Under the pieces are notes generated by a model, which was not told the origin of the DNA, ran no database searches, and was given only the letters and a program-made list of their open reading frames with translations. A stretch of DNA of 12,833 bases, taken from a virus. Lineage: Duplodnaviria; Heunggongvirae; Uroviricota; Caudoviricetes. The position numbers and the translations under genes are program-made. Location: the IMG/VR virus record IMGVR_UViG_3300029248_000207, positions 1 to 12,833 of that record. One strand, 5' to 3'. Below, one piece after another: positions 1 through 12,833 of this stretch. The first letter of the stretch is position 1; every line of letters starts with the position of its first letter.

Positions 1-22
1 TTCATCTCGCTAACTTCGCTTA

Positions 23-50
23 TTATGGGGATCAGTTTCAGGGTTTCAAG
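23..50 (-). promoter_or_regulatory. Sigma-32 (heat-shock) promoter reading leftward out of the window, presumably for grpE
   Basis: Minus strand reads CTTGAAA (complement of 44..50), a 13-nt spacer, then CCCCATAA (complement of 23..30). This matches the sigma-32 consensus (-35 CTTGAA, -10 CCCCATnT). grpE lies divergent from nadK in E. coli; the gene itself is outside the window. Confidence 0.6.
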
Positions 51-98
51 GGAAGCACTCACATTGTCATCAATCTTCGCAACAAGGACCTCGGAAAA

Positions 99-977: not shown

Positions 978-994
978 TTTTACGCCAGCCTCTT

Positions 995-1036
995 TACTGT
1001 ATATAAAACCAGTTTATACTGTACACAATAACAGTA
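995..1036 (+). promoter_or_regulatory. Two tandem LexA (SOS) boxes in the recN promoter
   Basis: taCTGtatataaaacCAGtt at 995..1014 and taCTGtacacaataaCAGta at 1017..1036; both are CTG-N10-CAG, the LexA operator pattern, directly upstream of recN. Confidence 0.8.
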
Positions 1037-1062
1037 ATGGTTTTTCATACAGGAAAACGACT

Positions 1063-2724
1063 ATGTTGGCACAACTGACCATCAGCAACTTTGCTATCGT
1101 TCGTGAGCTTGAGATTGATTTTCATAGCGGCATGACCGTAATAACTGGCGAGACCGGCGCGGGTAAATCTATTGCAATAGATGCCCTCGGTCTTTGTCTC
1201 GGTGGTCGCGCTGAAGCCGACATGGTGCGTACCGGCGCTGCTCGCGCTGACCTGTGCGCCCGTTTTTCTCTGAAAGATACGCCAGCGGCTCTGCGCTGGC
1301 TGGAAGAAAACCAGCTTGAAGACGGGCATGAATGTTTGCTTCGTCGCGTGATCAGCAGCGATGGTCGCTCCCGTGGTTTCATCAACGGTACAGCTGTTCC
1401 TCTGTCACAACTGCGCGAACTGGGTCAGTTGCTGATTCAGATCCATGGTCAGCACGCTCATCAGTTACTCACCAAACCCGAGCACCAAAAGTTCCTGCTT
1501 GATGGCTATGCCAATGAAACCTCTCTACTCCAGGAAATGACAGCACGTTATCAGTTGTGGCATCAAAGCTGCCGTGACCTCGCGCATCATCAACAGTTAA
1601 GTCAGGAACGCGCTGCCCGTGCGGAACTGCTGCAATACCAATTAAAAGAACTTAACGAATTTAATCCGCAGCCCGGAGAGTTTGAACAAATCGACGAAGA
1701 GTACAAACGTCTGGCGAACAGCGGTCAATTGCTGACCACCAGCCAGAATGCATTGGCATTAATGGCCGACGGTGAAGACGCAAACCTGCAAAGTCAGCTT
1801 TACACGGCTAAACAACTGGTGAGCGAATTGATTGGCATGGACAGCAAACTGTCCGGCGTACTTGATATGCTGGAAGAAGCTACCATCCAGATTGCTGAAG
1901 CCAGCGATGAACTGCGCCACTACTGCGATCGTCTGGATCTCGATCCCAACCGACTATTTGAACTTGAACAGCGCATCTCAAAACAGATTTCGCTGGCACG
2001 TAAACATCACGTCAGCCCTGAGGCATTGCCACAGTATTACCAGTCGCTACTGGAAGAACAGCAGCAACTGGACGATCAGGCCGACTCACAAGAAACGCTT
2101 GCGCTGGCGGTAACGAAACATCATCAGCAGGCACTGGAAATCGCGCGCGCATTACACCAACAACGCCAGCAATATGCAGAAGAACTTGCACAGCTGATCA
2201 CCGACAGTATGCATGCGCTCTCAATGCCGCATGGGCAGTTTACGATCGATGTTAAATTTGACGAGCATCACCTGGGCGCTGACGGTGCCGATCGTATTGA
2301 GTTTCGGGTAACCACCAACCCAGGTCAGCCAATGCAGCCTATTGCCAAAGTCGCATCCGGTGGTGAATTGTCCCGCATCGCACTGGCAATCCAGGTCATC
2401 ACGGCGCGTAAAATGGAAACCCCGGCACTGATTTTTGATGAAGTGGATGTAGGGATTAGCGGTCCAACAGCGGCAGTTGTCGGCAAACTGCTGCGTCAAC
2501 TCGGCGAATCAACTCAGGTGATGTGTGTTACCCACCTGCCACAAGTCGCGGGATGTGGTCATCAACACTATTTTGTCAGCAAAGAAACCGATGGTGCGAT
2601 GACAGAAACGCATATGCAATCCCTGAATAAAAAAGCGCGGTTACAAGAGCTGGCGCGCCTGCTTGGTGGCAGTGAAGTCACACGTAATACACTGGCGAAT
2701 GCGAAAGAACTGCTTGCAGCGTAA
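1063..2724 (+). CDS. recN: DNA repair protein RecN (SMC-like ATPase)
   Basis: 553-aa ORF; N-terminal Walker A (GETGAGKS), long coiled-coil middle, C-terminal ABC signature-like region; RBS aggaaaa upstream; LexA boxes upstream. Confidence 0.95.
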
Positions 2725-2872
2725 ACTTTTTTCCTGCTTCACGGTCAGAGTAAACAGCAAAACGCCGTAAGACCGGAAAGCAAAAGGTTTTAAAGTGATG
2801 AAAGGTCTATTATCATCGGCATATTACAGATGAGCCACGTACTGCTCGGGCCCGAAAAGGAATCAAATCACT

Positions 2873-3214
2873 ATGCGCTGTAAAACGCTGACTGCTGCAG
2901 CAGCAGTACTATTGATGTTGACCGCAGGCTGTTCCACTCTGGAGCGAGTGGTTTACCGTCCTGACATCAACCAGGGGAACTATCTGACCGCTAACGACGT
3001 ATCCAAAATACGTGTTGGCATGACGCAACAACAAGTTGCGTACGCATTGGGTACACCGCTGATGTCCGATCCATTTGGTACGAATACCTGGTTCTATGTC
3101 TTCCGCCAGCAACCAGGTCATGAAGGTGTAACGCAGCAAACGCTGACGCTGACCTTTAACAGTAGCGGTGTGTTGACCAATATTGATAACAAACCTGCGC
3201 TGAGTGGTAACTAA
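2873..3214 (+). CDS. bamE: Outer membrane protein assembly factor BamE (lipoprotein)
   Basis: 113-aa ORF with lipoprotein signal peptide and lipobox (LLMLTAGCS); sequence recognisable as BamE/SmpA; conserved position between recN and ratB. Confidence 0.92.
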
Positions 3215-3237
3215 TAATAAAGTTGCTCTCAAAGACG

Positions 3238-3270
3238 TTAAAAAAGGTGCTCAATGAGCACCTTTTTTCT
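3238..3270. terminator. Bidirectional rho-independent terminator between convergent bamE and ratB
   Basis: aaaaaGGTGCTCAatgAGCACCttttttct: a GC-containing stem flanked by an A-run on one side and a T-run on the other. Confidence 0.7.
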
Positions 3271-3275
3271 GTCTG

Positions 3276-3566
3276 TTATTTATTCGCTGATTTTTCTGCT
3301 CGTTGCCTGCGAAGCTCTTTCGGATCGGCAATGAGAGGGCGATAAATCTCCACCCGATCGCCATCATGCACACTATCGCTTAGTTTTGCCGGACGGCTGT
3401 AAATGCCGACTTTGTTTTTAGTTAAATCGATATCGGTACGCAATTCCAGCAAGCCACTGGCGCGAATAGCTTCTTCAACCGTCGCGCCCTCCTGCAGCGT
3501 CACGCGCTGCAGGTACTGCTTCTCAGGTAGCGCATAAGCCACCTCAACGGCAATTTTACCTGGCAC
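3276..3566 (-). CDS. ratB: RatB (YfjF/PasI-like) small protein, UPF0125 family
   Basis: Minus-strand ORF; I call the start at a GTG (complement of 3564..3566), giving 96 aa (VPGKIAVEV...). The longer 124-aa reading would need about 95 nt of overlap with ratA. The chosen start overlaps the ratA stop by 11 nt. Confidence 0.8.
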
Positions 3567-4032
3567 TGTAAACCTCTTTCGCACGAACCGTAAAAGCCTG
3601 GACCATATTAGACGCCAGCTCTTTAAACACGCGACCAAAGGCGAGTTCAATCAACTTATTGGTAAACTCAAAGTCGAGATGAAACTCGATACGACACGCC
3701 TCCTGGCTCAGCGGCGTAAACTTCCATCCACCAATCAATTTCTTGAACGGCCCATCCACCAGATTCATAAGAATACTTTGGTTACTGGTCAACTGGTTGC
3801 GGGTAGTAAACGTTTTGCTGATCCCAGCCTTAGAGACATCTACCGCCGCAGTCATCTGCCCAGGAGTGGACTCCAGAATCCGACTTCCGGTACAACCCGG
3901 CAAAAACTGAGGATAAGACTGAACGTCATTCACTAACTGATACATTTGCTCCGCGCTGTAGGGTACCAGTGCGGTCCGGCTAATCTGAGGCATAACAATT
4001 TCCATCAACAAAAATCCAACAAATAATATCAT
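3556..4032 (-). CDS. ratA: RatA (YfjG/PasT), ribosome-association toxin-like, SRPBCC fold
   Basis: 158-aa minus-strand ORF recognisable as enterobacterial RatA. An internal Met 14 codons in (start at 3993) is an alternative start. Confidence 0.85.
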
Positions 4033-4163
4033 TTATCCTGCTGTAAAAAAAACGCTATCCCGGCGCTGGGTAACATCGGGTTCATGCTAAGATAGAGCCT
4101 TGTCCCCCGCAGGATTGATATGGGGTGTTTTCGATTTCAGATTACCGATGATTCACGACGCTT

Positions 4164-4646
4164 ATGACGAAGAAAAAAGCACATAAACCTGGTTCAGCGA
4201 CCATCGCGCTTAACAAGCGCGCCCGTCACGAATACTTTATCGAAGAAGAGTTCGAAGCGGGACTTGCCCTGCAAGGCTGGGAGGTTAAATCCCTGCGCGC
4301 AGGAAAAGCCAATATCAGCGACAGCTACGTCCTTCTGCGTGACGGAGAGGCATTTCTGTTTGGCGCTAACATCACGCCAATGGCCGTGGCCTCCACGCAT
4401 GTGGTGTGCGATCCTACCCGTACCCGCAAGTTACTTCTCAACCAACGCGAACTGGACTCATTGTACGGTCGCGTCAATCGAGAAGGCTATACCGTAGTGG
4501 CGCTCTCCCTGTACTGGAAAAATGCCTGGTGCAAAGTGAAAATCGGCGTCGCCAAAGGTAAAAAACAGCACGATAAACGTTCAGATATCAAAGAACGCGA
4601 ATGGCAGGTGGATAAAGCACGTATCATGAAAAACGCCCACCGTTAA
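4164..4646 (+). CDS. smpB: SsrA-binding protein SmpB
   Basis: 160-aa ORF ([33 protein letters not shown]...) recognisable as SmpB; immediately upstream of ssrA as in all enterobacteria. Confidence 0.95.
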
Positions 4647-4860
4647 ACCTGCACTCCAATTATTGACCAGTTCCTCACCGCGCCTCCCTCTCCGGCGGCG
4701 CGAATGAACATCTTATTGGCTATCACATCCGACACAAATGTTGCCATCCCATTGCTTAATCGAATAAAAATCAGGCTACATGGGTGCTAAATCTTTAACG
4801 ATAACGCCATTGAGGCTGGTCATGGCGCTCATAAATCTGGTATACTTACCTTTACACATT

Positions 4861-5223
4861 GGGGCTGATTCTGGATTCGACGGGATTTGCGAAACCCAAG
4901 GTGCATGCCGAGGGGCGGTTGGCCTCGTAAAAAGCCGCAAAAAATAGTCGCAAACGACGAAAACTACGCTTTAGCAGCTTAATAACCTGCTTAGAGCCCT
5001 CTCTCCCTAGCCTCCGCTCTTAGGACGGGGATCAAGAGAGGTCAAACCCAAAAGAGATCGCGTGGAAGCCCTGCCTGGGGTTGAAGCGTTAAAACTTAAT
5101 CAGGCTAGTTTGTTAGTGGCGTGTCCGTCCGCAGCTGGCAAGCGAATGTAAAGACTGACTAAGCATGTAGTACCGAGGATGTAGGAATTTCGGACGCGGG
5201 TTCAACTCCCGCCAGCTCCACCA
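4861..5223 (+). ncRNA. ssrA: tmRNA (SsrA), 363 nt
   Basis: Starts GGGGCTGATTCTGGATTCGACGGG, ends GCCAGCTCCACCA. Internal tag reading frame at 4950..4982 encodes ANDENYALAA followed by a stop. tRNA-like 3' end (GGTTCAACTCCCGCC). Confidence 0.95.
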
Positions 5224-5257
5224 AATGATGATCCGGATATGTCCGGTGAAGTACAGA

Positions 5258-5292
5258 AAGCCCGCACAGCACAAGCTCTGCGGGCTTTTTTG
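5258..5292 (+). terminator. Rho-independent terminator downstream of ssrA
   Basis: aGCCCGCAcagcacaagctcTGCGGGCtttttt: 7-bp GC-rich stem followed by a T6 run. Confidence 0.7.
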
Positions 5293-5335
5293 TGTCTGTC
5301 ATTGTCCGAGAACATCCGGCTAAATCCAGAGAAAA

Positions 5336-5387
5336 TTGGTACACGTTTAGGTACACGCTATACTGTGGTCCATTAAACGTGTACCAA
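5336..5387. promoter_or_regulatory. Inverted and direct repeats directly upstream of int (candidate Int/Vis binding sites or operator)
   Basis: TTGGTACACGTTT at 5336..5348 and its exact reverse complement AAACGTGTACCAA at 5375..5387 (13-bp perfect inverted repeat). GGTACACG occurs twice directly at 5338..5345 and 5350..5357. The int start codon is at 5407. Confidence 0.5.
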
Positions 5388-5406
5388 TTATGGAAGGAAT
5401 CCAGAC

Positions 5407-6612
5407 ATGGCGCGCATCACACGCCCCCTCACTAACAACGAGATCCTTAAAGCTAAACCCCGAGAAAAAGATTTCACTCTGCATGATGGGGACGGCCTGT
5501 TCTTACTCGTGAAAACATCTGGTAAAAAGCTCTGGCGCTTCCGATACCAACGTCCAGTAAGTAATAGCCGAACTAACCTGAGTCTCGGCTCATACCCTGC
5601 CCTTACACTCGCAGCAGCTCGTCAGATACGCGACCAATATTTGGCTACGCTCGCGCAGGGGATGGATCCGCAACAGCAACAAGAGCAAGCATCAGAGCAA
5701 CGTCAGATTGAGCTGGATAGCATTTTCTCAACTGTGGCCTCCAACTGGTTCAAAATGAAGAGCAAAAGCGTCACAGAGGACTACGCGAAGGATATTTGGC
5801 GTTCTCTAGATAAAGACGTATTCCCAGCAATAGGCGCGATACCTGTTCAGGAGATTAAGGCCAGAACGATAGTTGAAGCATTGGAACCAATCAAAGCACG
5901 CGGCGCATTAGAGACTGTTCGTCGCCTGGTCCAGCGCATTAACGAAATAATGATTTACGCAGTCAACACCGGNNNNNNNNNNNNNNNNNNNNNNNNNNNN
6001 NNATCAGGTGTTGGAATGGCATTTGAGAAACCCAAAAAGCAGAACATGCCCACGCTACGACCAGAAGAATTACCTAAGCTGATGCGTTCTCTGGTCATGT
6101 CGAATCTGTCTGTTTCGACTCGATGTCTTATTGAGTGGCAGCTCCTGACCCTAGTGCGCCCTTCTGAGGCTTCTGGTGCTCGGTGGGTCGAGATCGATCT
6201 CGATGCCAAACTCTGGACGATTCCCGCCGAACGAATGAAGGCTAAGCGTGAACACATTGTCCCTTTGTCACCTCAGGCTTTAGATATTTTGGAAGTAATG
6301 AAGCCAATCAGCGCTCATCGTGAACATATTTTCCCTAGTAGAAATGATCCAAAGCGGCCGATGAATAGTCAGACTGCTAATGCTGCTTTAAAACGTATAG
6401 GTTATGGTGGAAAATTAGTTGCACATGGTTTACGTTCAATAGCCAGTACAGCTCTCAACGAATCTAATTTTAATTCTGATGTGATTGAGTCTGCGCTGGC
6501 ACACACAGATAAGAATGAGGTTAGGAAAGCGTACAATCGGTCCATTTATTTGAAACAAAGAGTTGAGCTAATGGACTGGTGGGGTAATTTTGTTATGATT
6601 ACTAATAGATGA
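5407..6612 (+). CDS. intA: P4-family tyrosine integrase (IntA-like)
   Basis: 401-aa ORF next to ssrA; N-terminal arm-binding-type domain and C-terminal catalytic region with HGLRSIA and a terminal Tyr region (KAYNRS). A 30-nt N-run at 5973..6002 is in frame (10 unknown codons). Confidence 0.9.
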   Translation: MARITRPLTNNEILKAKPREKDFTLHDGDGLFLLVKTSGKKLWRFRYQRPVSNSRTNLSLGSYPALTLAAARQIRDQYLATLAQGMDPQQQQEQASEQRQIELDSIFSTVASNWFKMKSKSVTEDYAKDIWRSLDKDVFPAIGAIPVQEIKARTIVEALEPIKARGALETVRRLVQRINEIMIYAVNTXXXXXXXXXXXSGVGMAFEKPKKQNMPTLRPEELPKLMRSLVMSNLSVSTRCLIEWQLLTLVRPSEASGARWVEIDLDAKLWTIPAERMKAKREHIVPLSPQALDILEVMKPISAHREHIFPSRNDPKRPMNSQTANAALKRIGYGGKLVAHGLRSIASTALNESNFNSDVIESALAHTDKNEVRKAYNRSIYLKQRVELMDWWGNFVMITNR

Positions 6613-6625
6613 TAAAGGACTGCAC

Positions 6626-8068
6626 ATGAGCACAGTAAAAAATATTGATACCGTTTCATCAAACTTTAACATTTCGCCATCAATTCTTGATCAACTTGAT
6701 GTTGTTGATGTTTTATTAGAGTCAGATACGTTGCTTTTCATTGACCCTATGCTCCTCCCTGAAAGTAAGCATCCTGAAATGAAAGTGGATGCTGATAAGA
6801 AATACATAGATACTTTCACAAGTATCATTAAATTACTTAAAGCATCTAAGGTTCAGAATGATAATGATGTTGCTTGGAAGGCAGCCAAAAAGTTATTTTC
6901 ATTTTCCGAAATAGGATGGACATGTTTGGGTTATGGCTCATCAGCCAAAGGCTCAGGATTCGGGCCACACCTTGTGAACACAACAATGAATACTGCCTAT
7001 CAAATTATCAACATGGATATTGATGATCCTGACTTATTTATGGTCATGTCGTTATTTGAAGAAGGTATTGGGGCTGATAGAATTAGTGACATGACTACAA
7101 ATATAATATTTGAGTCCTTAGTGAAATTCTCAGAAAGAGTTAATCAAACCCTTCAAATCCCGACAAAAGAATTTTCTTTTAAAGGGAAAAAGTACATTGC
7201 CCCTCATAATCCATTAACAGATAAACCATTAATATTAGTTCCTAAAGATGTTGTCCGTGATTTGCCTATATCCACTGACTGGAGCGGTGCAGTCAGTACA
7301 ATGAAAGAAAACACGGACCTACGTGACAGAATTAATACCAACATTGGTAAACTGCTCGCATCAATGACCCAAAAAGAAAAAGCTGAAGCCAAGCGACGAG
7401 CTTTAGAGAAAAAAGAATATTTTGAAGACCTCCTAGAATTAATAAAAGAAGTAGAAAAAGAGCCTTACGATTTTAAAGCTGATAAGAATGGTGAATTATT
7501 TTGGTCAAGACTTGTATCTTCAATAGATAAAAAATACCCTTTCAATCTTTCTAAGTTTAATAAAAAACTAACCTTAGATGATGTAGAAAATTTGGTTGAT
7601 GAGATATTAACCCAATTCAAAGATCTAATTGAAAACAAAGGTCTATGGAAGGAAATGTGGGCAGATGATAAAAAACCAAGAAAAGAAAAAGCGGCTCAAC
7701 GTTTACTTTTTGCAGTAGCTTATTCATATTGCAAAGCCAATAACTTAGACATTAGCCCTGAGGCTGACTCTGGTAATGGACCTGTTGACTTCAAAGTCTC
7801 GCAAGGATTCGAGCAGAAAGTTTTAGTTGAAGTTAAGTTATCATCCAATGGTAAATTACTGCACGGATATGAAAAGCAATTAGAAATTTATAGAAATGGT
7901 GATGATACAGATCGAGCATTTTTCGTAATAGTTGATATCGGTCATTTAGGAGAAAAATACCAAAAGGTCCAGCAGGCTAGAATTGCAGCAGAAAATGAAG
8001 GTTTAAGAGCCTCAAAGATTATTCATATTGATGCACAACAAAAAGACTCTGCGAGCATTCGTATCTAG
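6626..8068 (+). CDS. Cargo protein of unknown function with a C-terminal PD-(D/E)xK nuclease-like domain; candidate anti-phage defence gene
   Basis: 480-aa ORF, uninterrupted and AT-rich compared with its neighbours; RBS-like aaggac upstream. C-terminal motifs: GPVDF (Asp codon at 7787..7789), VEVK (Glu at 7829..7831, Lys at 7835..7837), then QLEIY (QxxxY, as in RecB/Cas4-type nucleases). The N-terminal ~350 aa are unrecognised, with a Gly-rich patch (GYGSSAKGSGFG) and a charged coiled-coil-like stretch. It lies between int and cos/psu. Confidence 0.8.
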   Translation: MSTVKNIDTVSSNFNISPSILDQLDVVDVLLESDTLLFIDPMLLPESKHPEMKVDADKKYIDTFTSIIKLLKASKVQNDNDVAWKAAKKLFSFSEIGWTCLGYGSSAKGSGFGPHLVNTTMNTAYQIINMDIDDPDLFMVMSLFEEGIGADRISDMTTNIIFESLVKFSERVNQTLQIPTKEFSFKGKKYIAPHNPLTDKPLILVPKDVVRDLPISTDWSGAVSTMKENTDLRDRINTNIGKLLASMTQKEKAEAKRRALEKKEYFEDLLELIKEVEKEPYDFKADKNGELFWSRLVSSIDKKYPFNLSKFNKKLTLDDVENLVDEILTQFKDLIENKGLWKEMWADDKKPRKEKAAQRLLFAVAYSYCKANNLDISPEADSGNGPVDFKVSQGFEQKVLVEVKLSSNGKLLHGYEKQLEIYRNGDDTDRAFFVIVDIGHLGEKYQKVQQARIAAENEGLRASKIIHIDAQQKDSASIRI

Positions 8069-8073
8069 ATTAA

Positions 8074-8112
8074 TAAAGGCTCAACTATCACTTAGTTGAG
8101 CCTTTGTTATTT
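8074..8112 (+). terminator. Rho-independent terminator after the cargo ORF
   Basis: AAAGGCTCAACTAtcacTTAGTTGAGCCTTTgttatttt: about 13-bp stem followed by a T-rich tail, 6 nt after the stop codon. Confidence 0.7.
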
Positions 8113-8148
8113 TCTACCAGATTAATATATCTACATATGTTTGCGCGC

Positions 8149-8167
8149 AATGCTCTCCCCGCCACGC
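8149..8167. other. cos site (P2/186/P4-type 19-nt cohesive-end sequence)
   Basis: ATGCTCTCCCCGCCACGCC. From memory this is one mismatch from the reverse complement of the phage 186 cohesive end (GGCGTGGCGGGGAAAGCAT) and close to the P2/P4 one (GGCGAGGCGGGGAAAGCAC). It sits between the cargo gene and psu, where cos lies in integrated P4. Confidence 0.65.
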
Positions 8168-8340
8168 CTGCCCGCTTAAGAGGTCACTTTTAATGCAGGT
8201 GCATGAACGGCCTCAGGCCGCACCGGTACTGGTGTTGCGTGGGATAAAAAATACGGGGATTTTCATGCAAAGCCATGCACCTTATGGATGCATGGCTTTT
8301 TCGGGAAAAATAGCGGAATTTTCGGGGATTTTTTTGCGTG

Positions 8341-8911
8341 CTAGCGTGCGGCCAGTTCTGCACGTCGGCGGGTGTAAATCAGGTTCTGTGCTGGGGTGAA
8401 TTTCTGGCGATTATCATCCCGCGAAGCCGCATCAGGCCTGAATCCGATGCCCGTTAAAATATCGCTGTCCTGCGCGGAATAATTAATTTTTTCACCTGCG
8501 GCCAGCCACACCGACAGGGCTTCACGCAGATAATCAACCGAGTGCTGCATGGCGCTCTGTTTTACTGCGGGAAGCTGTTCGTTATACCCCATCAGCTCAG
8601 GTGCCAGCGTGGCGGCCAGCTCCGCGCCGTGCTGCTGCATAAAGTCATGGAGCCGGTTGCGGATGCTGATGTGCTGCACCTCCTCATGTGAGCGGATATN
8701 NNNNNNNNNCGGCGGCCTGATTAATTTCCCACTTTTTCACGTCGATATTGTCGCGCAAATCCTGCATTCTGAGCGGAATTTGTTCGTCACCGGCAAGGAG
8801 CTGTTCACGGTATTCCCGTTCAAGGTCTGCCAGTTCGGCTTTACGTTTCAGCCAGGTGTTTTTGTTCGTCTGACAGGCCTCAAAGGCCTGCTGTATGGTC
8901 ACAGTGGTCAC
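8341..8911 (-). CDS. psu: Polarity suppression protein Psu (capsid decoration / Rho antagonist), interrupted by a 10-nt N-run
   Basis: Two minus-strand ORFs (8684..8911, 75 aa; 8341..8679, 112 aa) together read like P4 Psu (MTTVTIQQAFEACQTNKN...EINQAA [gap] IRSHEEVQHISIRNRLHDFMQQHG...). GTG start at 8911, preceded by aggagag. The N-run at 8700..8709 separates the halves, which are in different frames as written. Confidence 0.8.
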
Positions 8912-8926
8912 GTGTCTCTCTCCTGA

Positions 8927-9166
8927 TTAATGCCGGAACGGCGAGCTGTAGCAGCCCTGTACTTTACGCGGCGGCGGTGGCGTCACCGGGGCGGGGTCGG
9001 GTTTCTCCGGTGCGGCACGTATCACACCGTCAACCGACTCGATGGTGCGGAAAGTGGCCGAGCATTCGATATTGGTACACTGGTGATAACGCTGTTTGAC
9101 GTTTTCCGACAGATAACGGCTGGTACGGACGTGCGCGGTCTTTTTGCAGAACGGGCAGTGAAACAT
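8927..9166 (-). CDS. ogr: Ogr/Delta-family zinc-finger late-gene transcriptional activator (single-domain, Ogr-sized)
   Basis: 79-aa ORF MFHCPFCKKTAHVRTSRYLSENVKQRYHQCTNIECSATF...; the CxxC...CxxxxC arrangement and sequence closely resemble P2 Ogr / P4 Delta. RBS gaggg upstream; the sid stop codon (9170..9172) is 3 nt upstream of the start. Confidence 0.88.
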   Translation of the reverse strand: MFHCPFCKKTAHVRTSRYLSENVKQRYHQCTNIECSATFRTIESVDGVIRAAPEKPDPAPVTPPPPRKVQGCYSSPFRH

Positions 9167-9169
9167 GAT

Positions 9170-9913
9170 TCAGCCCTCTGCCTGTTCGTGGTCTTTTGCG
9201 GCCAGTTCAGCGGCAAGCTTCATCCGTCTGGCCGGGCTTCTTAACAGCGCCATATCAACCCCGGTTATGACCGGGCGATTCATGCCCGTTACGGACAGAA
9301 CCGGCTCCTGCTCCATATCAAAATGATACAGGGCTGACTGCAGATTCAGGGCATCACCCAGCTCGCGGGTCACGGTCGCACGCGGCGAGGTTTCTCCGCT
9401 CATTTCCAGCGACCGTATACGCAACAGAAAGGCACGTAACAGTGCGGGGCTGATACCGGTCAGCGCCTTCTTCCACTCGCTGTTGGCGTAGGTAGTGAAC
9501 GCTTTTTCATGGGCGCTGATGTAAGCCGTACCGGAGGAGCATGCGCCAAGCATGGCGAGGTTTTTGTCTTTCTCCAGCTCGGTAATCAGACCGGTAAACT
9601 CATCAGCCAGTTCGCGGCTGGCGATACGTTTACTGTGTTCAGCTTTCAGTTCAGGAGTGAGGTTGCCGCGCAGGGTTCGAAAGCGGCTGCGCCAGTCCTG
9701 TTCGGCCTGTGCACTTTCACTGAGCGCGGTCTGTCGTTCCTGCTCACAACGCTGAATGGAAGCCTCAATGTCGCTGAGTTTACCCATGCTGGCCGAGTGT
9801 GCGTCTTTTGCTTCGTTAAGTGCGGCCAGCGCACCGGCAATACGTTGTTCCGCGCCTTCATCCTGTTTACTGATAACGGTCTGCATGGCTTTGATAATGA
9901 GTTCGGGTTTCAT
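9170..9913 (-). CDS. sid: Sid-like capsid size determination (external scaffold) protein
   Basis: Minus-strand ORF in the sid position of the sid-delta-psu operon. Start chosen at the ATG giving MKPELIIKAM (247 aa, close to P4 Sid length), with ggag upstream. The in-frame ATG at 9979 (269 aa) is the alternative, but it would start only 6 bp from the activator dyad. Confidence 0.72.
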   Translation of the reverse strand: MKPELIIKAMQTVISKQDEGAEQRIAGALAALNEAKDAHSASMGKLSDIEASIQRCEQERQTALSESAQAEQDWRSRFRTLRGNLTPELKAEHSKRIASRELADEFTGLITELEKDKNLAMLGACSSGTAYISAHEKAFTTYANSEWKKALTGISPALLRAFLLRIRSLEMSGETSPRATVTRELGDALNLQSALYHFDMEQEPVLSVTGMNRPVITGVDMALLRSPARRMKLAAELAAKDHEQAEG

Positions 9914-9984
9914 GTTCAGGTTCTCCGTATGTTCAACCTGAAATGATTCTGACGCCTCCTGCACAACAACACGATTCATTGCCG

Positions 9985-10002
9985 TTGTCAGAGTGCTGGC
10001 AC
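9985..10002. promoter_or_regulatory. TGT-N12-ACA dyad: candidate Ogr/Delta binding site of the late promoter driving sid-ogr-psu
   Basis: TGTcagagtgctggcACA. P2/P4 late promoters carry a TGT-N12-ACA activator site centred near -55. This dyad is about 80 bp upstream of the proposed sid start at 9913. Confidence 0.55.
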
Positions 10003-10081
10003 AAACAGACCTTAAAATCAGGCTGGCCAGAGAAAGGTCGCAGGAAAACCTTACTCACCGTTTGTTTTTTTACTTATAACT

Positions 10082-10184
10082 ATTCACCACTGTTCACCTT
10101 AAATAAAAAGATAAGTAATACAGCAAGTTAAATGGTGAACAGTTGAAGGTCTGACTGTTCACCGTCTGTTCACCACTGTTCACC
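10082..10184. repeat. Cluster of TGTTCACC octamer iterons (candidate alpha-protein binding sites / replication origin)
   Basis: Exact TGTTCACC at 10091..10098, 10156..10163, 10167..10174 and 10177..10184 (the last three spaced 11 and 10 bp apart). Inverted copy GGTGAACA at 10134..10141. Degenerate ATTCACC at 10082..10088. Confidence 0.7.
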
Positions 10185-10264
10185 CTTCAGTTTTGCTCTG
10201 GCTATATCATCTAGACTTTATTACGATTAAAAACGAAAAGTATATAACTAAAAGAGATATTAAT

Positions 10265-10325
10265 TGCTGCATTGTAATGCAGTGATTTGCATATGTTTGC
10301 CAGCGTTTGCCTTTGTTTGCCAGAG
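10265..10325. promoter_or_regulatory. Palindrome plus three phased GTTTGCC repeats upstream of vis/alpA (candidate operator of the leftward-operon promoter)
   Basis: CTGCATTgtAATGCAG at 10267..10282 (7-bp perfect arms, 2-bp spacer). GTTTGCC at 10295..10301, 10305..10311 and 10315..10321, with 10-bp periodicity. Confidence 0.4.
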
Positions 10326-10446
10326 CGAAAAGTCAATGTTTGTCCGAAAATCTCACATGACCTGAGGGAAAATATAAACATAATAAGGAGCTACCCGAAG
10401 CCGGACGGACACGACCGGCACTGTATGGACTTTGTGAGGTAGCCCG

Positions 10447-10713
10447 ATGCACACCGCTTTTTCTTCCCCGTCTTCTGCCCCTGCCGCGCCGCTGATGCCG
10501 GTTTCTGATACCGTTCACGAGCGCTTTATCCGTCTGCCCGAAGTGATGCATCTGTGCGGCCTGTCCCGCTCGACCATTTACGACCTCATCAGCCGGGAAG
10601 CCTTCCCGAAACAAATCTCCCTCGGCGGAAAAAACGTGGCGTGGGCGCAGTCTGAAATCACTGCATGGATGGCGGATCGCATTGCCGAACGTAACCGGGG
10701 CTATGACGCATGA
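10447..10713 (+). CDS. alpA: AlpA/Vis-family phage regulatory protein (excisionase-like HTH)
   Basis: 88-aa ORF (P4 Vis is orf88); the RLPEVMHLCGLSRSTIYDLISREAFPKQISLGGKNVAWAQSEITAWMADR region resembles the AlpA/Vis winged-helix; RBS gagg 8 nt upstream. Confidence 0.85.
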   Translation: MHTAFSSPSSAPAAPLMPVSDTVHERFIRLPEVMHLCGLSRSTIYDLISREAFPKQISLGGKNVAWAQSEITAWMADRIAERNRGYDA

Positions 10714-10840
10714 TGATGGCCGCTCAGCAAAAAGCCCCTTTTTCTGGCTTGCTTCTTTTCGCCGTTTCCAGGTATAGTTTTCCCGCTGTCGCAAAATCGG
10801 CAGCCGGGCGTAGGAACCCGTGTAATTCACAGGCGACAAC

Positions 10841-10865
10841 AGACGCGCCATGCGTCTTTTTTTAC
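10841..10865 (+). terminator. Rho-independent terminator inside the immunity-like region
   Basis: AGACGCgccatGCGTCTtttttttt: 6-bp GC-rich stem plus T8, about 25 nt downstream of the first GCGTAGGAAC element. Confidence 0.55.
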
Positions 10866-10995
10866 GTCGTTGCTCAGGCACACCCATTTTTCGGGCTGTA
10901 GCCCCTGTCAGATAATGGTGGTCCGGGCGGGGCAGCTTTCGGGCTGGCCGGTATTCTGTGAAGCCGGTATTCCTACCCCCGTTCGGGTCACCACC
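10866..10995 (+). ncRNA. Candidate P4 CI-like immunity RNA region (contains the seqB-like element); ends undetermined
   Basis: No plausible ORF here. CCGGTATTCCTAC (10964..10976) is complementary to GTAGGAACTCCGG (11003..11015; 11 of 13) and partly to GCGTAGGAAC (10808..10817). CCGGTATTC is also duplicated at 10948..10956. This matches the seqA/seqB/seqC logic of P4 immunity. Confidence 0.3.
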
Positions 10996-11052
10996 CATGA
11001 GCGTAGGAACTCCGGTGGTGGCAATAACCGCTATTCACAGGAGGTTGCCATC

Positions 11053-11247
11053 ATGGCTACGACCCTCACCCCGTCACACCCGCAGTTTGTCTTTGTGTTT
11101 GCCGCCGTTCGTCGCGCAGACCGTAAACCCCGTATTTGCATGCTGCGCACCGTTGCCGGTGACGAGCACGCCGCACGCCTTTCCCTCGTTCGCGATTACA
11201 TCCTCTCGTTCGCTGGCCGTTTGCCGGTTCTGGAGGTGCGCGCATGA
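11053..11247 (+). CDS. Hypothetical small protein (P4-like early operon)
   Basis: 64-aa reading from an ATG preceded by a strong RBS (cacAGGAGGttgccatcATG); its stop overlaps the next start (ATGA at 11244..11247). The longer six-frame ORF from 10870 has no RBS. Confidence 0.55.
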
Positions 11248-11471
11248 GACACACCACCATTACCGCCCGTGACCTCGAATGTCTGGAGCATATGCGCAAC
11301 GTCGGCCAGCTCGTCGGCGACCTGATGCAGGTGCAGGACTGCGCCACCGTTCGTCGTGACCCGACGCAGCAGTTACAGCTCACCTCCGTGATTTACCTCA
11401 TGACCGCCCAGCTCGACGGCGTGGTCGAACGCTGCAATCAGCACTGGCTGACCGGGGAGAGCAACGTATGA
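11244..11471 (+). CDS. Hypothetical small protein (position corresponds to the epsilon/anti-repressor region of P4-like elements)
   Basis: 75-aa ORF translationally coupled at both ends (ATGA overlaps at 11244 and 11468); no recognisable motif. Confidence 0.5.
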
Positions 11472-11788
11472 AAAAGCCATTACCGCCCGTATTACGCGCC
11501 GCGCTGTATCGTCGCGCCGTGGCCTGTGCATGGCTGACCCTGTGCGAACGCCAGCACCGCTACCCGCACCTCACCCTCGACGCGCTGGAAAGCGCCATTG
11601 CGACCGAGCTGGAGGGCTTCTATCTGCGCCAGCATGGCGAGGAAAAAGGCCGTCAGATTGCCTGTGCCCTGCTTGAAGATTTAATGGAAGCCGGACCACT
11701 CAAAGCCGCCCCGTCGCTGTCCTTTCTCGGGCTGGCCGTGATGGATGAGCTTTGCGCCCGTCATATCACCGCACCGGTACTGCACTGA
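11468..11788 (+). CDS. Hypothetical protein, 106 aa, immediately upstream of the primase
   Basis: ORF coupled to the upstream gene and ending 14 nt before the primase start; P4 has an orf106 in the equivalent position, but I cannot confirm sequence similarity. Confidence 0.5.
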
Positions 11789-11802
11789 GGGAGAAAACAA
11801 CG

Positions 11803-12833
11803 ATGAAAATGAACGTAACAGAAACGGTAAAACAGGCGTGCGGCCACTGGCCGCGCATTCTCCCTGCGCTGGGTGTGAAGGTGATTAAAAACCGCCATCA
11901 GTCCTGCCCGGTGTGCGGTGGCTCTGACCGCTTCCGCTTTGACGATAAAGAGGGGCGCGGGACGTGGTTCTGTAACCAGTGCGGCGCGGGTGACGGACTT
12001 AAGCTGGTAGAAAAAGTGTTTGGCGTGACCCCGTCTGAGGCCGCCGGGAAGGTGAATGCCGTGACCGGCAACCTGCCGCCGGTTGCCCCGGAAGTGATTG
12101 CGGTCGCAGAGGCTGAAACGGAGGCCGACCGCAAAGCGGCGGCCGCGCTGGCCGTCAGGCTCATGGAGAAAACCCGACCGGCCACCGGCAATGCCTACCT
12201 CACCTGCAAGGGTTTCCCCGCTCTGGAATGTCTGACGCTCACCGCCATGCATAAAACCGGCGGCGTGACGTTCCGCGCCGGGGATGTGGTTGTCCCGCTG
12301 TATGACGATACCGGCGTACTGGTTAACCTTCAGCTTATCAATGCAGACGGTCTCAAACGCACCCTGAAAGGCGGTCAGGTCAAAGGGACATGTCATATCA
12401 TCGAAGGGAAAAAACAGGCCGGAAAACGCCTGTGGATTGCGGAGGGTTATGCGACCGCGCTCACCGTGCATCACCTGACCGGGGAAACCGTCATGGTGGC
12501 GCTGTCCTCAGTAAACCTCCTTTCTCTGGCGAGCCTTGCCCGTCAGAAGTCCCCGGCCTGTCAGATAGTGCTTGCCGCCGACCGTGACCTGAACGGCGAT
12601 GGCCAGAACAAAGCCACAGCGGCCGCAGACGCCTGTGAGGGCGTTGTTGCCCTGCCACCGGTATTCGGTGACTGGAATGATGCGTTTATACAGTACGGCG
12701 AGGAAGCCACGCGGAAAGCGATTTATGACGCTATCCGGCCACCGGCGCAAAGTCCGTTTGATACCATGAGCGAAGCCGAATTTACCGCCATGAGCGCCAG
12801 CGACAAGGCCTTGCGGGTGCATGAGCATTACGG
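11803..12833 (+). CDS. P4 alpha-like primase(-helicase), N-terminal part; continues past the window end
   Basis: Open frame from the ATG at 11803 (RBS gggag upstream) to the window end; it is absent from the ORF track because it has no stop in the window. Zinc-binding motif CPVCGGSDRFRF...WFCNQCG and a TOPRIM-like region (WIAEGYATALTV..., VLAADRDLNGDG). Confidence 0.85.
   Translation, partial: MKMNVTETVKQACGHWPRILPALGVKVIKNRHQSCPVCGGSDRFRFDDKEGRGTWFCNQCGAGDGLKLVEKVFGVTPSEAAGKVNAVTGNLPPVAPEVIAVAEAETEADRKAAAALAVRLMEKTRPATGNAYLTCKGFPALECLTLTAMHKTGGVTFRAGDVVVPLYDDTGVLVNLQLINADGLKRTLKGGQVKGTCHIIEGKKQAGKRLWIAEGYATALTVHHLTGETVMVALSSVNLLSLASLARQKSPACQIVLAADRDLNGDGQNKATAAADACEGVVALPPVFGDWNDAFIQYGEEATRKAIYDAIRPPAQSPFDTMSEAEFTAMSASDKALRVHEHY

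What the first reader, a model, noticed from the sequence alone, without database searches (positions are those of the whole stretch)
5205..12833. P4-like satellite prophage integrated at ssrA with a minimal int-cargo-cos-psu layout
The P4 genes gop, beta and cII that normally lie between int and cos are absent; a single cargo gene takes their place. The late operon (sid, ogr-type activator, psu), the Vis/AlpA gene, the immunity-like region and the alpha primase are otherwise in canonical P4 order. This is a satellite that needs a P2-like helper, placed at the tmRNA gene rather than at a tRNA-Leu gene.
Basis: partly seen in the sequence, partly recalled or inferred. Interest (0 to 1): 0.5.

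Follow-up and report, generated by a model that had tools for sequence, protein, structure and literature searches.

The report
Ordinary P4-like satellite, uncharacterised nuclease cargo
This is a standard P4-type phage satellite sitting at the E. coli tmRNA gene; the single "cargo" gene lies in the satellite's already described anti-phage defence hotspot and encodes an untested, widespread restriction-endonuclease-like protein.

Summary
Directly after ssrA (4861-5223) lie a P4-type integrase, one 480-aa low-GC gene, a P2/P4 cos site, psu-delta-sid, the P4 ori iterons, vis/alpA, the isrK and C4 (CI-type) immunity RNAs, orf75, cnr/orf106, and the first 343 codons of the alpha primase. gop, beta and cII are absent.

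The layout is not unusual. The int-to-psu interval next to cos is the published P4 defence hotspot, with more than 300 arrangements and 1-9 genes. This exact cargo protein family is already listed there as "hypothetical". ssrA is the site of the classic P4-like cryptic prophage CP4-57.

Sibling elements at the same ssrA site share the backbone but carry Drt3, a PARIS-like pair (AAA ATPase + DUF4435) or DUF4747 within the same 1.54-kb variable segment.

In a 99.6 % identical genome the element is 9,958 bp long. It ends at a degenerate ssrA 3'-end repeat and carries a second cargo gene after alpha.

The cargo (DUF8370 + DUF8371) has an invariant PD-(D/E)xK motif and a BamHI-like fold. It has no conserved partner gene. 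It recurs as single-gene cargo on other mobile elements and beside known defence genes. It is most likely a stand-alone anti-phage nuclease, but this is untested. Interest is low to moderate.

The parts
4861..5223 (+). ssrA (tmRNA), the integration target. The 8-nt att core CCGCCAGC shared with attR lies at 5209-5216. The last 7 nt (TCCACCA) lie on the element side of that core.
   Evidence: ARAGORN; Rfam RF00023 295.8 bits; comparison of attL, attR and the empty site.
5257..5296 (+). Hairpin plus T-run just after ssrA, on the element side of the junction. It is a likely ssrA terminator supplied by the element.
   Evidence: Terminator-like site at 5273-5287 plus TTTTTTG; sequence read.
5407..6612 (+). 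P4-type tyrosine integrase. It contains the N run 5973-6002. Identity is 36 % to P4 Int and 60 % to CP4-57 IntA.
   Evidence: Pfam; NCBIfam PRK09692 591 bits; blastp.
6596..8139 (.). Variable hotspot segment (1,544 bp). Homology to sibling elements carrying other cargo stops at about 6593 and resumes at 8140-8143.
   Evidence: blastn against L019, L020 and L021; cos alignment.
6626..8068 (+). Cargo gene, 480 aa, DUF8370 + DUF8371. The C-terminal PD-(D/E)xK nuclease domain has E379, D388, E402 and K404. GC is 0.35. A Shine-Dalgarno sequence AAAGGA lies 5 nt upstream of the ATG.
8071..8109 (+). Intrinsic terminator of the cargo gene: a 17-bp stem followed by a T-run.
8144..8215 (.). cos region. 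The 19-nt cohesive end lies at 8150-8168 (minus strand, GGCGTGGCGGGGAGAGCAT). The conserved block starts at GCGCGC, 6 nt to its left.
   Evidence: It is 82-89 % identical to the cos of P2-like phages. The exact 19-mer occurs in P2-like phage contig L042 between portal and gpA.
8341..8911 (-). psu (polarity suppression / capsid decoration). It looks split in the window only because of the N run 8700-8709.
   Evidence: Pfam Psu 1.8e-88 on the KMi029 copy; 63 % identity to P4 Psu; N-run analysis.
8927..9166 (-). delta, a single-domain Ogr/Delta zinc-finger late activator of 79 aa. P4 Delta is a 166-aa tandem.
   Evidence: Pfam Ogr_Delta 8.4e-21; it matches both halves of P4 Delta.
9170..9913 (-). 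sid (capsid size determination), 247 aa. The longer 269-aa reading to 9979 would start upstream of the predicted late promoter.
   Evidence: 30 % identity to P4 Sid, E 2e-26; phrog_6165; RefSeq start; promoter position.
9986..10003 (.). TGT-N12-ACA dyad, an Ogr/Delta-responsive Psid operator. It is aligned with the corresponding P4 site.
   Evidence: The role of the dyad is from established P2/P4 literature (memory).
10091..10184 (.). P4-type ori: five exact type-I iterons TGTTCACC.
   Evidence: 0.39 expected by chance; P4 ori annotation.
10447..10713 (+). vis/alpA (excision and transcription regulator).
   Evidence: Pfam Phage_AlpA 3e-20; 70 % identity to P4 ORF88.
10785..10998 (+). Immunity region: isrK-like RNA at 10785-10862 and C4-family (P4 CI-type) antisense RNA at 10911-10998. 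A window-specific 14-bp deletion lies between them at 10899.
   Evidence: Rfam 74.6 and 78.3 bits, both above gathering score; deletion.
10870..11247 (+). Ash-family ORF, homologous to P4 ORF137 and annotated as Icd-like. It is a 183-aa ORF in relatives and is frameshifted here by the 14-bp deletion. A strong Shine-Dalgarno sequence plus ATG at 11054 may mark the real start.
   Evidence: Pfam Phage_ASH 1e-29 on the KMi029 copy; 75 % identity to P4 ORF137; sequence.
11244..11471 (+). orf75, a small conserved P4-like gene of unknown function. It is absent from P4 itself and shows no similarity to P4 Epsilon.
   Evidence: phrog_10110 5.8e-46; reported in 61 % of P4-like elements (PMC8628076).
11468..11788 (+). 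cnr / orf106 (DUF5375).
   Evidence: Pfam 8e-66; 91.5 % identity to P4 ORF106.
11803..12833 (+). alpha primase-helicase, first 343 of 777 codons. It is cut by the end of the window.
   Evidence: 81 % identity to P4 alpha; the full-length KMi029 copy has Zn_Ribbon_Prim, Toprim_3, D5_N and Pox_D5 domains.

Best explanation
The region is the left three quarters of an apparently intact P4-like phage satellite. The whole element is 9,958 bp in a 99.6 % identical genome. A CP4-57-type tyrosine integrase has inserted it into the 3' end of ssrA.

It carries the full P4 hijacking and maintenance kit:
- a cos site identical to that of some P2-like phages;
- the Delta-activated psu-delta-sid late operon, with a conserved TGT-N12-ACA operator;
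- ori iterons bound by alpha;
- vis/alpA;
- the CI-type immunity RNA;
- cnr and the alpha primase.

It is therefore expected to be packaged into small capsids built from a P2-like helper's structural proteins. This is inferred and was not tested.

The interval between int and cos is the family's known hotspot for swappable anti-phage genes. Here it holds a single self-contained gene with its own ribosome-binding site and terminator. The protein is 480 aa (DUF8370 + DUF8371) and ends in a PD-(D/E)xK restriction-endonuclease-like domain.

My best reading is that this protein is a stand-alone anti-phage nuclease. The conserved N-terminal two thirds would sense or select the target: modified phage DNA, or a trigger produced by infection. 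The C-terminal domain would cut nucleic acid. By protecting the lysogen, it would protect the satellite.

Status of each step:
- Shown: the gene content, the hotspot position, the nuclease motif and fold, the lack of a conserved partner, and the recurrence on other mobile elements.
- Inferred: the defence function (about 0.7) and the sensor/effector division of labour (about 0.5).
For: **Element identity**
- Pfam, Rfam and P4 comparisons identify every core gene.
- ori iterons are present.
- The Psid dyad aligns with the P4 site.
- cos aligns with P4 and with sibling elements.
- The exact 19-mer occurs in a P2-like phage contig between portal and gpA.

**Ends of the element**
- The empty-site strain WB61 joins ssrA directly to the ypjA flank.
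- The KMi029 attR reads TTCAGACTCCGCCAGCCCCCAATCA and matches the K-12 CP4-57 attR, annotated there as psaA.

**Hotspot**
- Sibling elements at the same ssrA site, 92-93 % identical in the backbone, carry Drt3a/b, DUF4747 + a hypothetical gene, or AAA ATPase + DUF4435 in the same place.
- The published description is in PMC9122126 and PMC13586616. In the latter, 6 of 8 randomly chosen unknown P4 cargo loci were protective.
- The cargo accession WP_089584712 is listed in Table S1 of PMC9122126 as a single hypothetical gene between psu and int.

**Cargo**
- Across sequences down to 30 % identity, K404 is invariant and E379, D388, E402 and Q418 are at least 90 % conserved.
- The AlphaFold model has pLDDT 79 and pTM 0.70.
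- The C-terminal part weakly matches the C-terminus of the NACHT antiphage protein EruA, E 3.5e-4.
- The N-terminal domain matches the PADLOC candidate PDC-M36A in 55 of 58 family members.
- The gene recurs as single-gene cargo in three other settings: a Vibrio superintegron cassette, a mobilisable island at tRNA-Thr in E. coli, and an integrative element next to SLFN-helicase/MazG genes.
- In 37 diverse loci the flanking genes include type I, IIG and III R-M, a CBASS cyclase, SoFic, PbeA, AbiO, Nhi and several PDC candidates. No neighbour family occurs in more than 3 loci.
- Distribution is patchy: 207 relatives among 185,579 species genomes across many phyla, and 13 of 5,426 complete E. coli genomes.
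Against: - No experiment bears on either mobilisation or defence.
- The cargo is not recognised as a complete system by PADLOC v2. It was not found in the stored text of the tables of systems tested in PMC9122126. The supplements of PMC13586616 are not held, so its tested set could not be checked.
- The N-terminal two thirds have no significant structural or sequence relative, so the sensing role is a guess.
- The neighbour analysis has no matched background control.
- The window copy carries a 14-bp deletion in the immunity leader, and the att repeat is degenerate with an 8-nt exact core. No homologue of P4 Epsilon, the helper derepressor, is present. The element could therefore be less autonomous than P4.
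- alpha and the right end are not in the window.
Confidence: 0.85

Rival explanations
1. The element is a decaying, no longer mobilisable P4-like remnant, comparable to CP4-57. It would be kept only because it supplies the 3' end of ssrA and a useful cargo gene.
For: - attL and attR share only an 8-nt exact core.
- There is no P4 Epsilon or ORF151 homologue.
- The window copy has a unique 14-bp deletion just upstream of the CI-type RNA and a 4-bp deletion between ori and vis.
- In one E. coli relative (L007) alpha is split by an insertion sequence.
- Excision would leave an ssrA without the G-U wobble pair and without the CCA end (PMC10107115).
Against: - All core ORFs are intact in KMi029 and in several other genomes.
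- The same element with an identical cargo protein is found at ssrA in several loci, including one with Salmonella-type flanking genes. Cargo proteins of the same 90 % cluster are recorded from E. coli, Salmonella, Klebsiella, Enterobacter and Citrobacter. This argues for recent transfer.
- Sibling backbones swap cargo cleanly.
- cos, the Psid operator, the ori iterons and the immunity RNAs are all conserved.
- The same degenerate attR serves CP4-57, which does excise.
- Absence of Epsilon, and presence of the 75-aa ORF, are common in the family.
Confidence: 0.15
2. The cargo is a Type IV (modification-dependent) restriction enzyme. The N-terminal region would read modified phage DNA and the C-terminal PD-(D/E)xK domain would cut it directly, with no abortive-infection logic.
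For: - It is a single polypeptide with a restriction-endonuclease fold and no adjacent methyltransferase.
- It has no conserved partner gene.
- The full element in KMi029 also carries a PADLOC mREase_II gene, which shows that this backbone tolerates such enzymes.
Against: - The N-terminal domain shows no detectable SRA, winged-helix or other known modification-reader fold.
- There is no match to the PADLOC or NCBIfam Type IV models.
- The top structural hits are ordinary Type IIP enzymes.
Confidence: 0.25
3. The cargo is not an immunity gene. It would instead be a selfish or housekeeping nuclease, for example an orphan restriction enzyme, a recombination or repair factor, or a factor that helps the satellite interfere with its helper.
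For: - Function is unknown (DUF8370/DUF8371).
- PADLOC gives only a partial match, to an unvalidated candidate.
- Some neighbours in other genomes are housekeeping genes.
Against: - It sits in a hotspot where most tested unknown loci were protective (PMC13586616).
- It recurs as the terminal cargo of unrelated mobile elements and as an integron cassette.
- It is frequently adjacent to R-M, CBASS, Abi and similar genes.
- Its distribution is patchy and shaped by horizontal transfer.
- Sibling satellites manage without it, so it is not part of the satellite life cycle.
Confidence: 0.2

Closest known systems
Satellite phage P4 (NC_001609 / X51522)
   Same: - Same gene order: attL-int-[hotspot]-cos-psu-delta-sid-ori-vis-CI RNA-...-cnr-alpha.
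- Protein identities to P4: alpha 85 %, cnr 91 %, Vis 70 %, Psu 63 %.
- ori iterons, the Psid dyad and the cos core are conserved.
   Different: - Int is only 36 % identical and targets ssrA.
- gop-beta-cII is replaced by one unrelated gene.
- Delta is single-domain (79 aa against 166 aa).
- Sid is only 30 % identical.
- There is no Epsilon or ORF151, and there is an extra orf75.
- The cos cohesive end differs at 3 of 19 positions.
- The element is about 1.7 kb shorter.
P4-like satellites with the int-psu defence hotspot (Rousset et al. 2022, PMC9122126; Moura de Sousa et al. 2026, PMC13586616)
   Same: - The variable segment lies between int and the cos-proximal conserved block.
- Siblings with the same backbone carry Drt3, a PARIS-like pair or DUF4747 at that spot.
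- This cargo accession is in their Table S1.
- A second, minor hotspot between the primase and att is occupied in KMi029.
   Different: Nothing structural differs. The particular cargo was not found in the stored text of the 2022 paper's tested-systems tables. The supplements of the 2026 paper are not held, so its tested set could not be checked.
Cryptic prophage CP4-57 of E. coli K-12
   Same: - Same integration site at the ssrA 3' end.
- Same degenerate attR next to ypjA.
- IntA is 60 % identical to this Int, and an AlpA-family regulator is present.
- Excision damages the tmRNA acceptor stem (PMC10107115).
   Different: CP4-57 is 22 kb. It has no annotated psu, sid, delta or P4-type alpha primase, and carries other cargo such as rnlAB and abpAB. 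The present element keeps the complete P4 core.
PADLOC candidate PDC-M36 (protein A)
   Same: The N-terminal domain, residues about 21-214, is homologous to positions 18-214 of the 457-position PDC-M36A profile. The match is seen in 55 of 58 family members, with a best E value of 1e-15.
   Different: Only the N-terminal half matches. No second gene accompanies the cargo here or in other genomes. PDC-M36 is itself an untested candidate, as far as I know.
PD-(D/E)xK Type II restriction endonucleases of the BamHI/BglII/BstYI group
   Different: Sequence identity is 6-11 %. There is no cognate methyltransferase. A conserved 345-residue N-terminal extension of unknown fold is present.

Membership tests
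P4-like satellite (core set used by Moura de Sousa & Rocha: int, psu, delta, sid, alpA, epsilon/Ash, alpha) | Integrase next to att | tested here: met
   int at 5407-6612, 184 nt after ssrA; Pfam and NCBIfam hits.
P4-like satellite (core set used by Moura de Sousa & Rocha: int, psu, delta, sid, alpA, epsilon/Ash, alpha) | psu-delta-sid operon, contiguous and on one strand | tested here: met
   8341-9913 on the minus strand; Psu 1.8e-88, Ogr_Delta 8e-21, Sid 30 % identity with E 2e-26.
P4-like satellite (core set used by Moura de Sousa & Rocha: int, psu, delta, sid, alpA, epsilon/Ash, alpha) | alpA/vis | tested here: met
   10447-10713; Phage_AlpA 3e-20; 70 % identity to P4 ORF88.
P4-like satellite (core set used by Moura de Sousa & Rocha: int, psu, delta, sid, alpA, epsilon/Ash, alpha) | epsilon / Ash component | tested here: inconclusive
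   A Phage_ASH-family ORF (homologue of P4 ORF137) is present, but it is frameshifted in the window by a 14-bp deletion and overlaps the isrK and C4 RNAs. The 95-aa P4 Epsilon protein has no homologue.
P4-like satellite (core set used by Moura de Sousa & Rocha: int, psu, delta, sid, alpA, epsilon/Ash, alpha) | alpha primase-helicase | tested here: met
   The first 343 codons are in the window (81 % identity). The full 777-aa gene is present in KMi029 (85 % identity).
P4-like satellite (core set used by Moura de Sousa & Rocha: int, psu, delta, sid, alpA, epsilon/Ash, alpha) | cos site shared with P2-like helpers | tested here: met
   8150-8168; aligned with P4 cos; the exact 19-mer occurs in a P2-like phage contig next to the portal gene.
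P4-like satellite (core set used by Moura de Sousa & Rocha: int, psu, delta, sid, alpA, epsilon/Ash, alpha) | Helper-dependent packaging and transfer | not testable with these tools
   Needs induction and transduction experiments.
P4 defence hotspot cargo | Located between int and psu, directly adjacent to the conserved cos block | tested here: met
   Variable segment 6596-8139; conservation resumes 6 nt before the cohesive end; definition taken from PMC9122126.
P4 defence hotspot cargo | Different gene sets at the same position in otherwise near-identical elements | tested here: met
   L019 carries Drt3a/b, L020 DUF4747 + a hypothetical gene, L021 AAA ATPase + DUF4435. All are at ssrA with a 92-93 % identical backbone.
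P4 defence hotspot cargo | Confers phage resistance | not testable with these tools
   Needs plaque assays. The cargo was not found in the stored text of the tested-systems tables of PMC9122126. The supplements of PMC13586616 are not held.
PD-(D/E)xK nuclease superfamily | Catalytic D...(D/E)xK motif conserved across the family | tested here: met
   K404 is invariant. E379, D388 and E402 are at least 90 % conserved in 58 sequences down to 30 % identity.
PD-(D/E)xK nuclease superfamily | Restriction-endonuclease-like alpha/beta fold | tested here: met
PD-(D/E)xK nuclease superfamily | Nuclease activity | not testable with these tools
   Needs biochemistry.
Type II restriction-modification system | Cognate methyltransferase encoded next to the endonuclease | tested here: not met
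   No methyltransferase domain was found in the element ORFs scanned. There is no conserved neighbour in 37 other loci.
PADLOC PDC-M36 | Full-length match to protein A plus the partner gene(s) | tested here: not met
   Only profile positions 18-214 of 457 match. The cargo is a single gene in every context examined.
CP4-57-type ssrA islands | P4-type integrase acting on the ssrA 3' end, with a degenerate attR next to ypjA | tested here: met
   60 % identity to IntA. The attR sequence is nearly identical to K-12 psaA. The empty site was seen in strain WB61.

The most novel reading that the evidence does not exclude
The DUF8370-DUF8371 protein would be the founding member of a new, phylogenetically very broad single-gene anti-phage system. 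Its conserved N-terminal domain, which has no detectable relative of known structure, would be a previously undescribed infection sensor that gates a BamHI-like nuclease. Mobile elements as different as P4 satellites, mobilisable islands and integron cassettes would trade it as a plug-in immunity module.
Probability: 0.35. Interest if true: 0.5.

Novelty: already known. Interest (0 to 1): 0.25.

Why it matters
As stated, the finding adds nothing new. P4-like satellites, their cos-adjacent defence hotspot and ssrA as an integration site are all well documented, and this locus type is already tabulated in the literature.

The residual value lies in the cargo gene. It is a compact, self-contained protein found across many bacterial phyla, with a restriction-endonuclease-like domain and an N-terminal region of unknown fold. 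It sits in a hotspot where most unknown genes tested so far turned out to be antiviral.

That makes it a cheap and reasonably promising candidate for a defence screen. Hundreds of comparable candidates exist, however, so it is not a priority on its own.

Tried and rejected
- **Exact att repeat.** I searched KMi029 for an exact or near-exact (up to 3 mismatches) repeat of the last 23 nt of ssrA downstream of alpha and found none. The right end was located instead by comparison with an empty-site strain and with K-12.
- **Sequence annotation of the cargo.**
  - The local Pfam copy gave no hit, even at E = 10 on three sub-fragments.
  - NCBIfam gave only a weak match to the EruA C-terminus.
  - PDB sequence searches with the single sequence and with a profile found nothing.
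- **Structure searches.**
  - Foldseek against the PDB and against viral structures gave no significant hit.
  - The afdb50 library was unavailable.
  - All three fold-search jobs were then used, so the N-terminal domain could not be searched on its own.
- **Literature.**
  - Searches for DUF8370, DUF8371, PDC-M36 and the accession gave nothing.
  - The only "EruA" paper found concerns an unrelated regulator.
  - The supplements of the 2026 NAR paper are not held.
- **Related loci.** The search for related loci with the deep alignment A2 failed for lack of a conserved stretch. It was repeated successfully with A1.
- **orf75 as a diverged Epsilon.** Considered and rejected, because there is no similarity.
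- **The 269-aa sid start.** Considered and rejected in favour of 247 aa, because the longer form begins upstream of the conserved late-promoter region.
- **PICI or another satellite type.** Considered and rejected, because every core gene is P4-type.

Full report
**1. What is in the window**

Positions 1-5223 are ordinary E. coli chromosome: nadK, recN, bamE, yfjF, ratA, smpB and ssrA.

The window is 99.6 % identical to E. coli KMi029 (NZ_CP147109, locus L001), apart from four differences:
- two N runs whose lengths differ from the real sequence: 5973-6002 (30 N for 21 nt) and 8700-8709 (10 N for 6 nt);
- a 4-bp deletion at 10344;
- a 14-bp deletion at 10899.

The N runs make int read 3 codons too long and split psu into two apparent ORFs. 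Both genes are intact in KMi029 and in other relatives.

**2.

The features after ssrA are, in order:

| Feature | Coordinates (strand) | Evidence |
|---|---|---|
| P4-type integrase | 5407-6612 (+) | Pfam; NCBIfam |
| Single 480-aa gene, GC 0.35 (backbone 0.56-0.60) | 6626-8068 (+) | |
| Strong intrinsic terminator | 8071-8109 (+) | |
| cos cohesive end GGCGTGGCGGGGAGAGCAT | 8150-8168 (−) | |
| psu | 8341-8911 (−) | |
| delta, single-domain Ogr/Delta protein | 8927-9166 (−) | |
| sid | 9170-9913 (−) | |
| TGT-N12-ACA dyad, aligned with the P4 Psid site | 9986-10003 | |
| Five exact TGTTCACC ori iterons (0.39 expected) | 10091-10184 | |
| vis/alpA | 10447-10713 (+) | |
| isrK-like RNA | 10785-10862 (+) | |
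| C4-family (P4 CI-type) RNA | 10911-10998 (+) | |
| Ash-family ORF | 10870-11247 (+) | |
| orf75 | 11244-11471 (+) | |
| cnr/orf106 | 11468-11788 (+) | |
| alpha primase, cut by the window end | 11803-12833 (+) | |

DNA homology to P4 begins exactly at P4's right cos end, window 8170. The order equals that of an integrated P4, as read from the P4 record. tblastn with P4 Gop, Beta, cII, Epsilon and ORF151 finds nothing in the window.

**3.

No exact repeat of the ssrA 3' end exists downstream of alpha in KMi029. Three comparisons locate the end anyway:
- Strain WB61 has an empty site, in which ssrA ...CCGCCAGC is followed directly by CAATCATGATTGGACGG... and ypjA.
- In KMi029 that flank is preceded by TTCAGACTCCGCCAGCCCCC, about 1.03 kb after the alpha stop codon. 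This is a degenerate copy of the ssrA end TTCAACTCCCGCCAGCTCCACCA. The exact shared core is only CCGCCAGC.
- K-12 has the same attR next to ypjA, annotated as the ssrA pseudogene psaA, at the end of CP4-57. Its IntA is 60 % identical to this Int.

Measured core to core, the element is 9,958 bp.

Beyond the window, KMi029 carries the rest of alpha, crr-like iterons, and a 166-aa DUF6998 gene that matches the PADLOC mREase_II model at 1e-100. This gene occupies the minor primase-to-att hotspot described in PMC13586616. Three sibling elements at ssrA lack it.

Gene content beyond the window is therefore fully consistent with a P4-like element.

**4. Helper dependence**

- The cos block is conserved with P4 and with all siblings, starting at GCGCGC 6 nt before the cohesive end.
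- It is 82-89 % identical to the cos regions of P2-like phages, including ENT90, Yersinia P2-like phages, pro483 and P2 itself.
- The exact 19-mer occurs in 108 IMG/VR contigs.
- One of these, L042, is a 30.7-kb P2-like phage. The 19-mer lies there between the portal gene and a hotspot gene followed by gpA. Terminase, portal, P2-family capsid and GPA domains were all confirmed in that contig.

A helper with a matching cos therefore exists. Actual packaging is an inference.

**5. Why the layout is not unusual**

- Rousset et al. 2022 (PMC9122126) describe the psu-int interval next to cos as a hotspot. They report more than 300 gene arrangements in 5,251 E. coli loci, and show that gop-beta-cII is itself one of the anti-phage systems found there.
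- Moura de Sousa & Rocha 2021 (PMC8628076) report 1-9 genes between int and psu. They also report a 75-aa ORF between the epsilon component and alpha in 61 % of P4-like elements. That ORF is absent from P4 and corresponds to orf75 here.
- The 2026 study (PMC13586616) confirms the main hotspot and adds the primase-att hotspot. It found 6 of 8 randomly chosen unknown cargo loci to be protective.

I confirmed the hotspot directly. Three elements at the same ssrA site, 92-93 % identical in the backbone, carry Drt3a/b (L019), DUF4747 + a hypothetical gene (L020), or an AAA ATPase + DUF4435 pair (L021). Homology to the window breaks at about 6593 and resumes at 8140-8143.

The KMi029 variant of the cargo protein, WP_089584712, is already listed in Table S1 of PMC9122126 as a lone "hypothetical" between psu and int.

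This particular ssrA-int junction occurs in 38 of 5,426 complete E. coli genomes.

**6. The cargo gene**

Family and annotation:
- It belongs to a large family: 2,030 cluster representatives at E ≤ 1e-3 in the search shown, and the 150 best are mostly 460-490 aa long.
- Newer Pfam labels it DUF8370 + DUF8371.
- The local Pfam copy, NCBIfam, and PDB sequence and profile searches give no functional name.

Evidence for a C-terminal nuclease:
- Across sequences down to 30 % identity, K404 is invariant and E379, D388, E402 and Q418 are at least 90 % conserved. This is a PD-(D/E)xK signature.
- Foldseek against the PDB and against viral models finds nothing significant.
- Residues 316-422 weakly match the C-terminus of the NACHT antiphage protein EruA in NCBIfam, E 3.5e-4.

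The N-terminal region:
- Roughly the first 345 residues have no recognisable fold.
- They contain invariant D34, G102, G109, G149, D151 and D155.
- Residues 21-214 are homologous to the first half of the PADLOC candidate PDC-M36A in 55 of 58 family members.

Genomic context:
- Proteins of the same 90 % cluster are recorded from E. coli, Salmonella, Klebsiella, Enterobacter and Citrobacter. The loci retrieved for the identical protein are P4-like elements, most of them at ssrA.
- A 59 % identical copy is a single cassette in a Vibrio superintegron, among toxin-antitoxin and acetyltransferase cassettes.
- A 54 % identical copy lies in an integrative element of Pseudoduganella, next to SLFN-type helicase and MazG-like genes.
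- A copy 81 % identical at the DNA level is the terminal gene of an integrase-relaxase island at tRNA-Thr in 11 complete E. coli genomes.
- Relatives occur in 207 of 185,579 species genomes, from Proteobacteria to Acidobacteriota, Bacteroidota, Nitrospirota, Planctomycetota and Patescibacteria.
- I scanned the two nearest ORFs on each side in 37 diverse loci, 148 proteins in all. Strong PADLOC hits include type I, IIG and III R-M subunits, a CBASS cyclase, SoFic, PbeA, AbiO, Nhi and several PDC candidates.
- No neighbour family recurs in more than 3 of the 37 loci. There is thus no obligate partner and no cognate methyltransferase.
- This neighbour survey has no matched background, so it is only qualitative.

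**7. Mechanism I commit to**

The satellite behaves like P4. It integrates through Int at ssrA, and the CI-type RNA maintains immunity. Delta/Ogr then activates psu-delta-sid, alpha replicates the element from ori/crr, and the helper's terminase packages it through the shared cos. All of this is inferred from conserved parts.

The hotspot gene is most likely (about 0.7) a stand-alone anti-phage nuclease. Either it is a sensor-gated effector, or it is a modification-dependent (Type IV-like) restriction enzyme. The data cannot separate these two.

Rivals:
- a decayed, immobile remnant (about 0.15);
- a non-defence function for the cargo (about 0.2).

**8. Verdict**

The feature is a textbook example of an already described architecture, and this locus type is already catalogued. 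The only open item is the function of the DUF8370-DUF8371 protein. It is a reasonable but unexceptional candidate for a defence screen.

Noticed in passing
window 5973-6002, 8700-8709, 10344, 10899: Two N runs have lengths that differ from the real sequence (30 N for 21 nt; 10 N for 6 nt). There is also a 4-bp and a 14-bp deletion relative to all ten relatives compared. The 14-bp deletion (TGGTGCTTATTCCA) lies 12 nt upstream of the CI-type (C4) RNA and frameshifts the annotated Icd/Ash-like ORF. It could be an assembly artefact or a real change in the immunity leader.
   Followed up: partly
L010 1-12042 (GCA_030332565.1 contig JAOWHQ010000008): A P2/186-like prophage (gpA, Dam, CI repressor, integrase) lies directly upstream of the same satellite's int. 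Only the last 45 nt of ssrA (window 5179-5223) are repeated at the junction. This looks like helper and satellite integrated in tandem at ssrA.
   Followed up: partly
L011 4050-4180 (E. coli WB61) compared with window 5170-5230: In a strain with nothing integrated at ssrA, the gene ends ...CGCCAGCCAATCA. It lacks the G-U wobble partner and the CCA end. The functional 3' end of ssrA in the window is therefore supplied by the satellite. Excision of this element, whose attR reads ...CAGCCCCCAATCA, is predicted to inactivate tmRNA, as published for CP4-57 (PMC10107115).
   Followed up: partly
L001 18379-18879 (KMi029, beyond the window's right end): A second cargo gene lies between alpha/crr and attR. 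It is a 166-aa DUF6998 protein that matches the PADLOC mREase_II model (methyl-directed restriction enzyme) at 1e-100, with GC 0.40. It is absent from three sibling elements at the same site.
   Followed up: partly
window 10710-11250: The 183-aa 'host cell division inhibitor Icd-like' ORF annotated in relatives overlaps both the isrK-like and the C4 RNAs. A strong Shine-Dalgarno sequence (AGGAGG) and an ATG at 11054 suggest that only a 64-aa C-terminal part, if anything, is translated.
   Followed up: no
window 11244-11471: orf75 (phrog_10110) sits where P4 has epsilon and orf151, but shows no similarity to Epsilon. The literature reports it in 61 % of P4-like elements with unknown function. 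It may be the functional counterpart of the helper derepressor.
   Followed up: partly
L131 9018-10460 (E. coli NDM1) and L012-L015 8001-9440 (Vibrio): Homologues of the cargo gene are the terminal gene of an integrase-relaxase mobilisable island at tRNA-Thr in E. coli, and a single cassette in a Vibrio chromosomal integron.
   Followed up: yes
L007 15202-18962 (E. coli GCA_000352465.1): In this otherwise near-identical element the alpha primase gene is split by an insertion that encodes a Tn5-type transposase fragment.
   Followed up: no
L042 6893-8953 (IMG/VR P2-like phage contig): The P2-like phage that shares the exact cos 19-mer carries a 627-aa DUF7380 protein in its own cos-adjacent hotspot, between portal and gpA.
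   Followed up: no
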